Positions 17,491 to 59,382 of a stretch of DNA of 64,000 nucleotides are shown one piece after another (the first letter of the stretch is position 1; each line of letters begins with the position of its first letter). The notes beneath the pieces are model-generated. The model did not search any database. It worked only from the letters and a program-made list of their open reading frames with translations, and was not told where the DNA came from. The DNA comes from Eledone cirrhosa (Eukaryota), in NCBI GenBank assembly GCA_964016885.1, contig OZ024759.1:17112001-17176000 (forward strand), in the 5' to 3' direction. A program made the position numbers and the translations under genes.

Positions 17491-17652
17491 AACGAAGGAA
17501 ATGTGGTAAGGAACCAGGTGGACCATAACGTACCAAAGTACTCAATACTTAGGGTAGTAGAGTGGGTAATAGGAACCAGTAAGACCCCGACGGCTGAGCT
17601 CAAGCCGTTTCGACGGCTAATTGAGCTCAGCCGTCGGGGTCTTACTGGTTCC
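17491..17652. mobile_element. GACGGC-family fold-back element in (TA)n (partly deleted hairpin)
   Basis: Homologous to 38588-38779. Both arms share the private variant GGAACCAGTAAGACCCC. Confidence 0.85.
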
Positions 17653-18461
17653 TATATATATATATATATATATATATATATATATATATATATATATATA
17701 TATATATATATATATATATATATATATATGTATATATACGTATACACCAGATTCAACTGAGAAGTTCATCGGCCGAATAAAGAGTGATGCTAGAGCTGTG
17801 AAATCAAATCTTGCATGCATTAATTTCTTCTCTTATTATTAACTGCATTGTTGTTTTTTTTACAAGGACTATGTTGAAAAATAAACATCATTTTGTCATT
17901 CCATGACAGCATCTTGGTTAGTCTATGGACCTTGCAGCAGAGAGAGAGAGAGAGAGAGAGAGAGAGAGAGAGAGAGAGAGAGAGAGAGAGAGAGAGAGAG
18001 ATGAAGAATGAGAGAAAAGGAGAGTGGGAGAGAGAGAGAGAGAGAGAGAGAGAAAGGGAGAGTGGGAGAGAGAGAGAGAGAAAGAGAGAGAGAGAATGAG
18101 AGAAAGGGAGAGTGGGAGAGAGAGAGAGAGAGAGAGAGAGAAAGGGAGAGTGGGAGAGAGAGAGAAAGAGAGAGAGAGAGAAACAGAGAGAGAGAGTGAA
18201 AAAGAGAGGGGGAATGAATGAGAAAGAGAGAGTGCGAGATAGAGATATAGATAGATAGATAGATATCTTTCTTTATTAGCCACAGGGGCACAAAAGAAGG
18301 GGACAAATACAAAGGGGGAAGTTTACATACAATAAAAACGTGTAAACTATTAGATAGATAGATAGAGATAGAGAGAGAGACAGAGTGAGAGAGAGAGAGA
18401 GTGAGTGAGTGAGTGAGTGAGTGAGTGAGTGAGAGAGAGAGAGAGAGAGAGAGATATTTAC

Positions 18462-18657
18462 CGTGTATTGTTCAGGAAACCCGTTCGAACAAGGACATTA
18501 TGTAGTCTAGTATCATTAAAGTCAAGTAAAGTGGCTTTGTTACTTTCACATATACGAATGGCTGCACTAGCAGAAAAGTTTTTATTGTAGCTTATCAACG
18601 AAACTTCATTTTGTCCGGTCTCACAACATCGAATCAACATCAGACATACTGCAATTG
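18462..18657 (-). CDS. Coding exon 2: end of signal peptide plus N-terminal half of C-type-lectin-like domain
   Basis: Acceptor ttcttattattcacag|, donor CG|gtaaat, 196 nt, phase 1-2. IAVCLMLIRCCETGQNEVSLISYNKNFSASAAIRICESNKATLLDFNDTRLHNVLVRTGFLNNT shows the A-x3-C-x4-A-x-L CTL pattern. Confidence 0.78.
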
Positions 18658-18711
18658 CTGTGAATAATAAGAATAACAATAATAAACACTGTGTTAATTA
18701 GGATTGGGGTC

Positions 18712-19212
18712 TTAATTATAAAATATTTGTTTCTACTTTAGGCACAAGGCCAGCAATTACCCAGTGCATTACTGGTACTTTATTTTATCGACCCCGTAAG
18801 GATGAAAGGCAAAGTCAACCTCGGCGGGATTTGAAACCAGATCGTAAAGGGACGTAACTATGCTGGAAAGCATGGCGTCCGACCCTCTACTGATACTGCC
18901 AATACACCGCCCTTTTTTCACACATTAATAATATCAAAATCTCATACATTCGATGTTAGTTGAGATAAAGCCTTTACCACGAAAATATGATAGTATATAT
19001 AGAGTAATAATTGTTTCTACTTTTGGCACAAGGCCAGCAATTACCCAGTGCATTACTGGTACTTTATTTTATCGACCCCGTAAGGATGAAAGGCAAAGTC
19101 AACCTCGGCGGGATTTGAACTCAGATCGTAAAGGGACGTAACTATGCTGGAAAGCATGGCGTCCGACCCTCTACCGATACTGCCAATCCACCGCCGTTAA
19201 TTATAAAATATT
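18712..19212 (-). mobile_element. SINE-spacer-SINE composite flanked by one 16-bp TSD
   Basis: TTAATTATAAAATATT at 18712-18727 and 19197-19212. SINEs at ~18727-18912 and ~19008-19195. Confidence 0.8.
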
Positions 19213-19222
19213 GTACATGTGT

Positions 19223-19885
19223 ATGGTGGATTAACAGTATTGGTAGAGGGTCGGACGTCATGCTTCGCAACACAGTTACGTTCCTTTACGAACTGAGTAC
19301 AAATCCCGCCGAGGTTAACTTTGCCTTTCATCCTTACGGGGGGGGGGGGGTCGATAAAATAAAGCACCAGTAATACACTGGGGTCTATTTAATCGACTTC
19401 CCCGCCCCCAAAATTACTGGCCTTGTGCCTATACTAGAAATCATTATTGCCAGTATCGGTAGAGTATCGGACACGATGCTTTGTAGCATAGAGTTACGGC
19501 CCTTTACAGTCTGATTTCAAATCCCGCTGAGGTTAATGTTGCCATTCATCCTTACGGGGTCGATAAAATAAAGTACCAGTAATTTACTGGGTAATTGCTG
19601 GCCTTGTGCCAAAAATAGAAACAATTATTATTATTATTATTATTATTAGCCTTTTACGTTCTGAGTTCAAATCCCACCTTTCATCCTTACGGGGTCGATA
19701 AAATAAAGCACCAGTAATGCACTGGGATCGATTTAATCGACTTTCCCCTCTGCCTAAATCAGGAACCATTATTATTATTATTAGCTCATTAGGGAGGTGG
19801 ATTGGCAGAATCGGTAGAGCGCCGGACAAAATGCTTTGCAGCACTTAGTTATGTCCCTTTAAGTTCTGAGTTCAAATCCCACCGA
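19223..19885 (+). mobile_element. Cluster of full and partial tRNA-derived SINEs
   Basis: Repeated B-box and CATCCTTACGGGGTCGATAAAA cores with (ATT)n tails. Confidence 0.8.
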
Positions 19886-56027: not shown

Positions 56028-56625
56028 ATATAGTTTTCTAAATAATTGTTTCTACTTTTGGAACCAGGCCAGCAATTACCCAGTGCATTACTGGTACTTT
56101 ATTTTATCGACCCCGTAAAGATGAAAGGCAAAGTTAACCTCGGCGGGATTTGAACTAAGATCATAAAGGGAGGTAACTCTATGCTTCAAAGCATGGCGCC
56201 CGACCCTCTACCGATACTTCCAATCCACAGCCCTTATATATGTTTCTTTATTAGCCACAGGGGCACAAAAGAAGGGGACAGATACAAAGGGGGAAGTTTA
56301 CATACAATAAAAACGTGTAAAATATTATCACAAATGCAATTTAAAAATTAGTCGATTTTCCCTAATAGGGGGAGACAGTTCATATGGGTAACACATACCC
56401 CCGAAAAAATGTGCAACCCTCATCCCCAGGAGTACGAAGAGTTTGTACTCCTTTCCTCTCCTCCTCCTCCTTTTCCTCAACACACAGGCTGATATAGAGA
56501 GAAGGCCCATTCACTCGGGCCATTCTCGCCACTTTCACCCACCTTTCATAAAACTTGCTGGGGTACAGCACCTCTCTCTCCATCCTGATTTTTCTTCACA
56601 GCTCTAATATAGTTTTCTAAATAAT
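56028..56625 (-). mobile_element. Tx1/L1-like LINE 3' end plus SINE within one TSD
   Basis: ATATAGTTTTCTAAATAAT at ~56028 and ~56607. IRMEREVLYPSKFYERWVKVA C-terminal motif. The 3'UTR end recurs at 18268-18350. Confidence 0.65.
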
Positions 56626-58349
56626 GTCAACATAAGCAATAATTATGCGTTAACAGTTAAATATTCGTGCTATTACATTGATAGTTCATTGTAAACAGAA
56701 TCTGATATTACCAAACAATTAAAATGGTAGAATATACAAGATCAGCATCTAAATTACAAGTGTACATAAGATCTAGTGTGTGTATATATATATATATATA
56801 TATATATATATATATATATATACGGCAATTTACAGCATACATTTACGCACACAAATATATATATATATATATATATATACATATATATACATATATATAT
56901 ACATATACAGACACACACATATATGTATATATATATACAGACAAATATATATATATACAGACACATATATATATATACATATACATACATACATACATAT
57001 ACAGACACATATATATATACATACATATACAGACACAGATATATATATATATATATCTGTGTATGTATATATATATATATATATATATATATATATATAT
57101 ATATATATATACACACACAGATATATATATATATATATATCTGTGTGTGTATGTATATATATATACACACATACATACACACGCACACACATATATTATA
57201 TATATGTACATATATTTATATCTATAAATATTTACTATATATATATAAATATATATACTATATATATATATATTTATTATATTTATTATATATATATATA
57301 CTATACATATAGTGTTATATATATATATATATATATATATATATATATATATATATATATATATATATTTGCTAGCTAGATCGATGAAGTATACACAACA
57401 CTGTATTTGTGTACAAAAATAACCTGTTGTTGTTAGAGTCTATTTCAACCAACTGAAATCTATTTTTCATTTCATTTTGTCTTATTCAGTTTTACATAGT
57501 TTTATTCAGTTTTCTATGCTTTTCTTTTCTTAGCTTAGTTTTATTTAGTTCTATACCGGAGACATGGAAACCGCAAAACATGAGTGATTCTTTCAGAAAA
57601 CATGCAAGACAATAATAAAAGAATTGAGGAATTTGATACAAGAACAGCTGTTACCAGTTTTGATTCTTGCAGATGCTGATAGAAAATCCTACGTAACAAT
57701 AGACTATTATAAATCGTGGTTATACACAGATACACAACTAATAATATTAAAAAAAAAAAAGCCTACAAAATATAAAAAAAAAAAAAATAATAATCCTCAC
57801 ACACAACAAAAAAAAAACACCACAAACAAAACAAAACAAATATTGAAAAGAAAACGCAAAGATCAATAACTAAATATAGATCTACCTTCCCTTCTGCAGT
57901 TCTATTTTAGGAAATAAGTTTCCATAACTTTGTCAGAATTTTGTTGGACGTACTCCAACCGTGAAAGCGTTTGGATGAGTGGTTGGGATGTTCGGCTCAC
58001 ACGACCGAAAGATAGTGAGTTCAATTCCCGAACCAACCACTGATTATATATATATTTATATATACACATATATATACACACACACACACACACACATATA
58101 TATATATATACTCTATACTCTATACCATTTCCTGTCAACATGACTTGGCAAGCTATTTAGAACACTGGTTTAACCGCTTTACTTCTCTCCGTAGAAGAGA
58201 TATTATCTCAAAATCTAAGGTAAAAGACTAATGTCAACAATATTTTTTGCATTTGCATTCTTTATTCTATGTCCATACCTGCATTGTTTTGGCTTTATTA
58301 TACATATACAAACGTTTATATATATATATATATATATATATATATATAT

Positions 58350-58660
58350 ATCAAAGGTATATATTGAGCTAGAAACTCAAAATAGTCTCTTACAATTAAA
58401 TAGCTCAAAGAAAGTGGTTTTTCTGAGCCGTGTAATATAAGTGAATATAAAAGAGAGATAAACAAAGATATAAACATTTATGTGTTCAAATTGTAAGAGA
58501 CCAGGTTCGCTAGGCTGAAAAAAATACTAACTATTAACAATAGGGTTTGCCAGACTCAATTTGAAATAATAAATCAAGACAAGAAATACAAACCTGGCTC
58601 CTTACGATTTGAACACATATATGTTTATATCTGTGTTTATCTCTCTTTTATATTCAATTA
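58350..58660. mobile_element. (TA)n-embedded fold-back element family (also 48092-48347 and 48617-48882); no HHR recognised
   Basis: Shared start TCAAAGG...TATTGAG...AACTCAAAAT...TTCTGAGCCGTGTAAT. Internal inverted repeats. Confidence 0.7.
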
Positions 58661-58737
58661 TATATACATATATATATATATATATATATATATATATATA
58701 TATATATATATATATATATATATATATATATATATAT

Positions 58738-58929
58738 AACGAAGGAAATGTGGTAAGGAACCAAGTGGACCACAACGCACCAAAGTACTCAATACTTAGG
58801 GTAGTAGAGTGGGTAATAGGAACGAGTAGGACGCCGACGGCTGAGCTCAAGCCGTTTCGACGGCTAATTCTAGTCCAGAATTAGCCGTCGAAACGGCTTG
58901 AGCTCAGCCGTCGGGGTCCTATTCGTTCC
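58738..58929. mobile_element. GACGGC-family fold-back element in (TA)n
   Basis: Near reverse-complement of 38588-38779 with a different hairpin apex. Confidence 0.88.
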
Positions 58930-59190
58930 TATATATATATATATATATATATATATATATATATATATATATATATATATATATATATATATATATATAT
59001 ATATATATATATATATATATATATATATATATAAGAGAGTATTGAAGTTTGCTTGAAGCATTGTGGAATAATAAAAAAATTGGTCATTTTGGAAGCCTCA
59101 ACAATGCAGATGGGTAAATCTCCGGATAACAGAATCCGGTGGTGAAGAGAAAGATGTAAGAGGAAATGTAGAATAAGATGTATTGTGTGT

Positions 59191-59382
59191 ACGAAGGAAA
59201 TGTGGTAAGGAACCAGATGGACCATAACGCACCAGAGTACTCAATACTTATGGTAGTAGAGTGGGTAATAGGAAAAAGTTTAACCCGACGGCAGAGCTCA
59301 AGCCGTTTCGACGGCTATTTCTGAACTCCAGAAATAGTCGTCGAAACGGCTCAAGCTCTGCCGTCGGGGTTAGACTTTTTCC
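59191..59382. mobile_element. GACGGC-family fold-back element
   Basis: Same subfamily as 32201-32396. Confidence 0.85.

What the first reader, a model, noticed from the sequence alone, without database searches (positions are those of the whole stretch)
17491..59382. GACGGC family: only the 3' half of a hammerhead, snapped back at stem II, in seven copies
Seen: copies at 17491, 28182, 32201, 38588, 49448, 58738 and 59191 carry GAAA-CGGCT-loop-AGCCG-TC-GGGGTC (GAAA, a 6-bp stem III, a GUC site and a stem I' strand) but never CTGANGA. The 5' half is replaced by an inverted copy. The apex differs in each copy, and the two arms usually share copy-specific variants. Inference: each palindrome formed independently when cDNA folded back on the ribozyme's own stem II hairpin and self-primed, a recurrent route that turns a ribozyme retroelement into a MITE-like hairpin.
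Basis: partly seen in the sequence, partly recalled or inferred. Interest (0 to 1): 0.75.

Follow-up and report, generated by a model that had tools for sequence, protein, structure and literature searches.

The report
Penelope stubs cut inside their ribozyme
These seven palindromes are short back-to-back stubs of a very abundant Penelope-type jumping gene; they lack half of its hammerhead-ribozyme motif likely because both ends of a DNA cut copied an RNA that begins in the middle of that motif, which would make the long-open question of how such elements build their inverted copies testable.

Summary
All seven palindromes are real and hold only the 3' half of a hammerhead. The parent is in this genome: a 3.6-kb Penelope-like element (RT + C-terminal GIY-YIG, Hydra-clade motifs) whose 3' repeat holds the whole motif. 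Its core is UUGANAA (U3-A8), not CTGANGA (4,655 hits against 10). Arms pair within insertions, so this is no ordinary MITE. Snap-back on stem II is not supported: its signature has 1 hit genome-wide, and that hit is ORF-derived filler. In 7 of 18 long inverted pairs the tail-less arm is the longer, which fold-back of one cDNA cannot give without a later deletion. The layout fits twin priming: both target strands extended from the two known internal start sites, then joined head to head. New here: 68 of 96 arms end within 13 nt around a conserved TYAGT in loop II, and only 4 end in the next 94 nt upstream. This likely marks the RNA's 5' end, making the stubs strong-stop-like cDNAs. No RNA data were available. 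The scan has noted two-armed Penelope-type insertions on other DNA of this genome before.

The parts
17491..17653 (.). Insertion 1: tailed arm on minus (17491-17622, element positions +139 to +8) joined to tail-less arm on plus (about 17621-17653, +27 to +59); 2-nt overlap
   Evidence: tailed arm 126 of 132 identical to parent L079
28182..28314 (.). Insertion 2: two tail-less arms; left arm subfamily C from +10; right arm reaches at least -8 and is a chimera (subfamily C to GAAAC, subfamily A after)
32201..32397 (.). Insertion 3, subfamily B: tailed arm on minus to +2 (32201-32338), tail-less arm on plus from +1 (32339-32397)
38588..38779 (.). Insertion 4, subfamily A: tail-less arm on minus to +1 (38588-38646), tailed arm on plus from +7 (38647-38779)
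   Evidence: tailed arm 130 of 133 identical to parent L079
49448..49632 (.). Insertion 5, subfamily C-like: tail-less arm on minus to +1 by eye (49448-49509), tailed arm on plus from about +10
   Evidence: the aligner stops at +10 for both arms because no parent of this exact variant was held
58738..58930 (.). Insertion 6, subfamily A: tailed arm on minus to +6 (58738-58871), tail-less arm on plus from +1 (58872-58930)
59191..59383 (.). Insertion 7, subfamily B variant: tailed arm on minus to +1 (59191-59327), tail-less arm on plus from +3 (59327-59383); tail end not followed by (TA)n
38700..38779 (+). The 80-nt tail (+60 to +139): in tandem parents it is the start of the 5' UTR and runs on into the ORF
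   Evidence: L079 and L024 continue past the tail end into the same UTR and start codon
38647..38691 (+). 3' half of a type I hammerhead: stem II 3' strand, GAAA, stem III, GUC site (cut predicted after +41), stem I 3' strand
   Evidence: pairs with the 5' half held by long copies

Best explanation
The palindromes are the shortest insertions of a 3.6-kb Penelope-like retrotransposon, and each likely formed when both strands of a cut (TA)n target were extended on element RNA and the two cDNAs were joined head to head. Shown: the parent, its whole hammerhead motif with a U3-A8 core, two fixed 3' ends (+59 and +139), one tailed and one tail-less arm per insertion, and a sharp pile-up of 5' ends around +1, inside loop II of the motif. 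Inferred: (1) the endonuclease nicks both target strands; (2) RT starts at two internal sites near the RNA's 5' end, +59 and +139; (3) most cDNAs run off the RNA's 5' end at about +1 (range -4 to +2), downstream of the motif's 5' half, so the stubs can never contain it; (4) the two cDNA ends are trimmed and end-joined, sometimes with filler or a short snap-back; (5) the roughly one arm in six that goes further has jumped to the RNA's 3' end or used a read-through or circular RNA. I put the +1 edge as a transcription start (about 50%), a nick in loop II (25%), an RT stall (15%), other (10%).
For: Parent L079: repeat 3519-4209, ORF, 3' UTR, +1 at 4066 and 7645; L224 has an open 710-aa frame. 35 of 37 short pairs and 18 of 20 long pairs are tail + no tail. 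Tail-less arm longer in 7 of 18 long pairs, by about 120 to 2,700 nt (L226, 227, 229, 231, 232, 233, 234), tailed arm longer in 11; short pairs 9 / 8 / 18 within 2 nt. 5' ends of 96 non-C arms not selected on their 5' end: 68 at -5..+8, 4 at -99..-6, 15 at 100 nt or more upstream, 9 at +9..+34. Genome counts agree: 4,655 hits for the 5' half against 35,316 for +2..+23. TYAGT is kept in 14 of 14 parents while the loop around it differs. PMC11167929 (parts 1-2 of 4 read): a PLE protein cuts and extends both strands, starts at two internal RNA sites, and the tail is the stretch between them.
Against: No RNA was seen, so the 5' end is inferred from DNA junctions only. No cap signature: G at -1 in 7 of 59 short arms. 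Subfamily C has its outer edge at about -11 in 15 of 30 loci (hand count; loci selected for TT at -2/-1), so the edge is not one fixed base. In subfamily B the edge lies in a predicted hairpin of loop II, which allows a stall or nick. No excess of indels near +1..+41 in 31 long copies, as a jump might leave (low power). Deletions at palindrome centres could shift apexes after insertion. The arm finder misses arms that start at +36 or later (one search found 5 arms starting at +36 to +41 and none at +42 or later among 78). 28182 has no tail and two kinds of arm.
Confidence: 0.75

Rival explanations
1. One cDNA folds back on the motif's own stem II and self-primes the second arm. Self-priming in general was proposed for PLE palindromes in PMC3846280.
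For: Arms pair within insertions. Fillers that copy the sense strand from +7 occur in L009, L026, L193, L294. The tailed arm is the longer in 11 of 18 long pairs.
Against: The predicted junction has 1 genome hit, which is ORF filler; apexes lack the 34-nt loop II; the tail-less arm is longer in 7 of 18 long and 9 of 35 short pairs; the second arm often starts at +1 by itself after filler.
Confidence: 0.07
2. Twin priming is right, but the edge is an RT stall at a hairpin in loop II of a longer (read-through or circular) RNA, not an RNA end.
For: Folds put -3..+4 in a 7-bp hairpin in subfamily B and give a hairpin near -9..-4 in C; T-runs just upstream of +1 in L001, L201, L206, L295 could be slippage.
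Against: The stronger stems II and III, met earlier by RT, stop few arms (9 of 96 end at +9..+34); TYAGT is conserved whether predicted paired or not.
Confidence: 0.12
3. A short non-autonomous master (MITE- or SINE-like) of about 200 bp spreads as a unit.
For: Very high copy number, short length, a few apex junctions recur.
Against: Tailed and tail-less arms form no clades (distance 0.131 within and between types; 18 changes); the same apex recurs in different subfamilies; ends and subfamilies are those of the long element, and lengths grade into multi-kb copies.
Confidence: 0.05

Closest known systems
Hydra clade of C-terminal EN+ Penelope-like elements (Craig et al. 2021, PMC8557442; sections 6, 11, 15 and passages read; supplement seen only as a few search hits)
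   Same: RT then GIY-YIG in one ORF; RWR (RWK-like), DKT, CxCX5C linker, CxxC and CxH, no CCHH; (TA)n target; inverted 5'-truncated copy; tail at one end
   Different: Hammerhead core is U3-A8 or C3.A8, not canonical; unit 3.58 kb (paper: generally under 3 kb); tail 80 nt (paper: 30-40 bp for PLEs); most arms stop at one site; no tree against reference Hydra proteins was made
Poseidon PAc of the green anole (Frangieh et al. 2024, PMC11167929; parts 1-2 of 4 read)
   Same: Two internal RT starts bounding a tail; both target strands extended; copies do not begin at the ribozyme cut site
   Different: In PAc the hammerhead overlaps the ORF start; the parts read describe no fixed 5' stop and do not explain inverted copies
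U3-A8 hammerheads of Schistosoma Cercyon PLEs (Cervera and De la Pena 2014, PMC4209133; parts 1-2 of 4 read)
   Same: U3-A8 core, long helix II, short helix I, G10.1-C11.1; motifs in opposite strands 100-700 bp apart
   Different: Here helix III is a full 5-6 bp hairpin, loop II is 33-34 nt, and about seven in eight copies lack the 5' half
Penelope elements of Adineta vaga (Arkhipova et al. 2013, PMC3846280; passages read)
   Same: Head-to-head inverted pLTRs with optional tail; Inr-like motif noted in the pLTR
   Different: That paper reads the palindromes as self-priming on an antisense template; the arm-length asymmetry here argues for two primings
LTR-retrotransposon strong-stop DNA and L1 twin priming (recalled, from no call)
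   Same: Works like: internal priming near the RNA 5' end with run-off; two target ends primed on one RNA
   Different: Target DNA, not tRNA, is the primer; no integrase, gag or poly(A) tail; both arms start near the same place

Membership tests
Penelope-like elements (EN+) | Single ORF with RT and GIY-YIG endonuclease | tested here: met
   L224 710-aa open frame with FDIESYY, YRDD and VIY..YIG motifs read by eye; 402 relatives at E<=1e-20, nearly all unnamed. Pfam scan of 3 fragments found nothing significant.
Penelope-like elements (EN+) | pLTR in tandem or inverted arrangement, tail at one end | tested here: met
   L079 tandem; 18 of 20 long and 35 of 37 short pairs have one tailed arm
Hydra clade | C-terminal EN without CCHH; CxCX5C linker; CxxC and CxH; DKT; RWK | tested here: met
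   L224 has CNCPDRSIC, CNLC, CKH, DKT, RWR (one residue off RWK)
Hydra clade | (TA)n insertion preference | tested here: met
   13 of 14 ends in the window abut (TA)n
Hydra clade | Canonical hammerhead | tested here: not met
   U3-A8 in 69 and C3.A8 in 31 of the 100 listed hits, G8 in 0 (hand count); canonical core 10 hits. Filed as Hydra-like only.
Hydra clade | Length generally under 3 kb | tested here: not met
   +1 to +1 in L079 is 3,579 nt
Hydra clade | Placement in the clade by RT/EN tree | not tested
   No named reference proteins were held
Type I hammerhead (parent copy) | Helices I-III around a core, G10.1-C11.1, GAAA, UH site | tested here: met
   93.5% of 294 cells paired against 26-53% when slid; 3 stem II pairs change on both sides, all from the one split between subfamily C and the rest; position 7 takes all four bases
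Type I hammerhead (parent copy) | Match to an Rfam hammerhead model | tested here: not met
   No hammerhead family among 106 matches to E=10 in 5 parent loci; none among the 150 listed of 234 window matches
Type I hammerhead (parent copy) | Self-cleavage | not testable with these tools
   Needs an in vitro assay
MITE | Left and right inverted repeats inherited as separate lineages of one unit | tested here: not met
MITE | Target-site duplication | not testable with these tools
   Hidden by (TA)n flanks
Non-LTR retrozyme | Tandem units each with a complete hammerhead | tested here: not met
   Stubs are inverted pairs with half a motif; definition from bioRxiv 10.64898/2026.07.22.740005, part 1 of 5 read

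The most novel reading that the evidence does not exclude
This Penelope-like element replicates with LTR-like logic: transcription starts inside the hammerhead, so the 5' copy is a silent half-ribozyme while the whole 3' copy cuts to form the RNA's end, leaving a 41-nt terminal redundancy. RT is primed by both target strands near the RNA's 5' end, makes strong-stop cDNAs and must jump to the 3' end; failed jumps left tens of thousands of half-ribozyme palindromes.
Probability: 0.35. Interest if true: 0.75.

Novelty: new variant of a known kind. Interest (0 to 1): 0.5.

Why it matters
How Penelope-like elements make their tandem and inverted copies, and what their hammerheads do, is named as open in PMC8557442 and PMC11167929. 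This family gives tens of thousands of reaction products with three fixed landmarks (+1, +59, +139). They favour two primings over self-priming and predict exactly where the RNA should begin and end. It also shows how a CUGANGA search misses both the parent (U3-A8) and the stubs, and how such stubs pass for MITEs or miRNA hairpins.

Tried and rejected
DNA search of the genome with the stub found nothing because common words are skipped. CTGANGA within 12-42 nt of the 3' half gave 38 hits; none of the 30 read was an intact motif; the gap was too short and the core wrong. A short reading frame ending just before GAAA is not the element's ORF, which ends about 1.2 kb upstream. Naiad clade: rejected, the endonuclease is C-terminal. 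Splice acceptor at +2/+3: no constant upstream exon in short arms. Inverted-repeat finder was swamped by (TA)n. One search was spoiled by (TA)n in the references and was redone; the automatic apex calls are noisy and only its printed apexes were used. Dropped before counts: L228 (nested in a larger inverted duplication) and L240 (two tailed arms, 83% alike) of 20 long pairs; these 20 were 20 of 24 neighbouring minus/plus pairs that I saw in the 100 rows listed. Cap-G test and indel test were negative or weak. Paper searches with 'twin priming', 'strong-stop' and 'U3A8' listed no paper joining these terms to PLEs; only the listed rows were seen (12 of 19, 12 of 15, 0), so absence from print is not established. 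Sequence look-up in the scan's notes found nothing.
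Full report
Setting. The window is G000:C20:17112001-17176000 of a 3.0-Gb genome in 1,796 contigs, 34% GC and rich in (TA)n. Positions below count from the A of TTAGTCC in the element as +1; the predicted ribozyme cut follows +41.

Observation. All seven copies are present. Each is a head-to-head pair of arms. One arm ends at +59, the other in six copies runs on to +139 (the tail), and 13 of 14 ends abut (TA)n. No CTGA.GA lies in any copy. One 22-mer (+2..+23) has 35,316 exact hits in the genome, control 0. 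Forty evenly chosen 10-kb stretches held 20 arms, which extrapolates roughly to 150,000 arms.

The parent. Two loci from the first pattern search shared 229 nt of upstream sequence at 74%. A search with it gave 2,135 candidates, 40 scored. L079 holds a partial tandem: repeat with tail at 3519-4209, 5' UTR, ORF, 3' UTR and a second repeat ending at 7705; +1 to +1 is 3,579 nt, and the tail is the start of the 5' UTR. L224 has an open 710-aa frame with RT motifs followed by a GIY-YIG-type domain, with RWR, DKT, CxCX5C, CxxC, CxH and no CCHH. These are the protein features given for the Hydra clade in PMC8557442 section 11, which also prefers (TA)n. The same paper describes inverted 5'-truncated copies and a one-sided tail as general PLE features. 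Pfam gave no significant match for three fragments; 402 relatives were found, nearly all unnamed. I file it as a PLE and as Hydra-like, because the hammerhead is not canonical, the unit is over 3 kb and no tree was made. The window's tailed arms match the parent's +1..+139 at 102-130 identical bases each.

The missing half. Long copies carry it about 50 nt upstream of +1: ACCCC, a 7-nt core, G, then the 5' strand of stem II. A pattern for it has 4,655 hits; of the 100 listed, 69 read UUGANAA with all four bases at position 7, 31 read CUGANAA, and none has G8 (hand count). The canonical core has 10 hits. U3-A8 is a known covariation in Schistosoma PLE hammerheads (PMC4209133). Subfamily C (559 hits) changes three stem II pairs on both sides; this is one split, not three independent events. 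Against this: Rfam finds no hammerhead in five parent loci, and cleavage is untested. The C3.A8 form breaks the 3-8 pair, which abolishes cleavage in PAc single mutants (PMC11167929), yet it is the form in 29 of 40 long copies (a set found with a query of that subfamily).

How the arms relate. Over 29 short pairs, arms differ by 0.060 within and 0.131 between insertions, and tailed and tail-less arms are no closer to their own kind. On a tree of 36 long arms the label needs 18 changes, shuffled mean 12.3. So arms come from the same source each time and this is no TIR MITE. They share subfamily variants (28 of 35, shuffled 4.7) but private variants are in one arm 45 times and in both once.

Fold-back or two primings. 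A snap-back on stem II would keep loop II in the apex and leave a specific junction. That junction has 1 hit, and there the middle is a 110-nt piece of the element's ORF. In any fold-back the tailed arm must be first and longest. In 18 readable long pairs the tail-less arm is longer in 7, by about 120 to 2,700 nt, and the tailed arm in 11 (L228 and L240 dropped). In 35 short pairs the counts are 9, 8 and 18 ties. PMC11167929 showed that a PLE protein cuts and extends both target strands and starts at two internal RNA sites that bound the tail. Two cDNAs started at +59 and +139 and then joined explain the one-sided tail, the shared subfamily and the independent lengths (inference). PMC3846280 proposed self-priming instead. 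Some fillers copy the sense strand from +7 (L009, L026, L193, L294), so a short snap-back may help join the two ends. Later deletions at palindrome centres are not excluded.

Why half a ribozyme. Of 96 non-C arms not selected on their 5' end, 68 end at -5..+8, 9 at +9..+34, 4 at -99..-6 and 15 run 100 nt or more upstream; in 30 of 35 pairs one arm reaches +2 or further. Genome counts give the same share of long arms, 4,655 against 35,316. Ends at the ribozyme cut site are rare. The edge lies in loop II, after the core and the 5' strand of stem II, so short arms cannot hold them. TYAGT at the edge is kept in 14 of 14 parents and resembles the invertebrate initiator TCAGT (recalled); D. virilis Penelope has an internal Inr/DPE promoter (PMC2377424, passages), but no such DPE was seen here. 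Against a simple start site: no cap-G excess (7 of 59), an outer edge near -11 in subfamily C (15 of 30), and predicted hairpins in loop II. No RNA run was available, so the RNA end is inferred.

Model. Shown: parent, motif, fixed 3' ends, arm asymmetry, 5' edge. Inferred: two-strand priming, run-off at the RNA 5' end, end-joining. Most novel reading: the whole 3' motif cuts at +41, giving an RNA with a 41-nt terminal redundancy across which cDNA must jump, as in LTR elements; a test for jump errors in 31 long copies was uninformative. The chimeric right arm of 28182 fits a switch between two RNAs in this stretch, but it is one case.

Verdict. The insertion type is known, and earlier notes of this scan read other families of this genome in the same two-armed way (my reading was entered before I saw them). 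The fixed 5' edge inside a U3-A8 hammerhead was not found in the papers I searched. New variant of a known kind; interest 0.5.

Noticed in passing
L155, L165, L166, L178, L079 and 31 of 100 rows: A large, near-identical group of long copies has C3 opposite A8, predicted to break the catalytic 3-8 pair; 27 of the 31 have G at position 7, so a shifted CUGA-GA register is also possible.
   Followed up: partly
window 28182-28314: Right arm switches from subfamily C to subfamily A just after GAAAC; neither arm has a tail.
   Followed up: partly
L242-L271 (subfamily C): Outer 5' edge near -11 instead of +1 in 15 of 30 loci; loop II sequence differs but TTAGT is kept.
   Followed up: partly
L191:1330-1640: Filler between two short arms is a 110-nt piece of the element's own ORF.
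   Followed up: yes
L001, L201, L206, L295: Runs of 12-18 T directly upstream of +1, as from RT slippage or untemplated A at a template end.
   Followed up: partly
L095, L200, L297: Arms with the stretch between the two AGCCGTC repeats (+12..18 and +35..41) deleted.
   Followed up: no
window 44960-45300: An unrelated inverted duplication of about 140 bp around 45160, next to (TA)n; possibly another two-armed insertion.
   Followed up: no
window 62328-62468 and 9835-10072: Other long hairpins; the first resembles the sequence upstream of arms in L008 and L023 and of L079, probably another repeat family.
   Followed up: no
window 7700-8400 and 16214-16900: Stretches that look like decayed coding sequence of another retroelement, on opposite strands; not translated or searched.
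   Followed up: no
window 17575-17722: The stub plus (TA)n passes the Rfam gathering score of an unrelated plastid family; such hairpins will give false RNA-family calls.
   Followed up: yes
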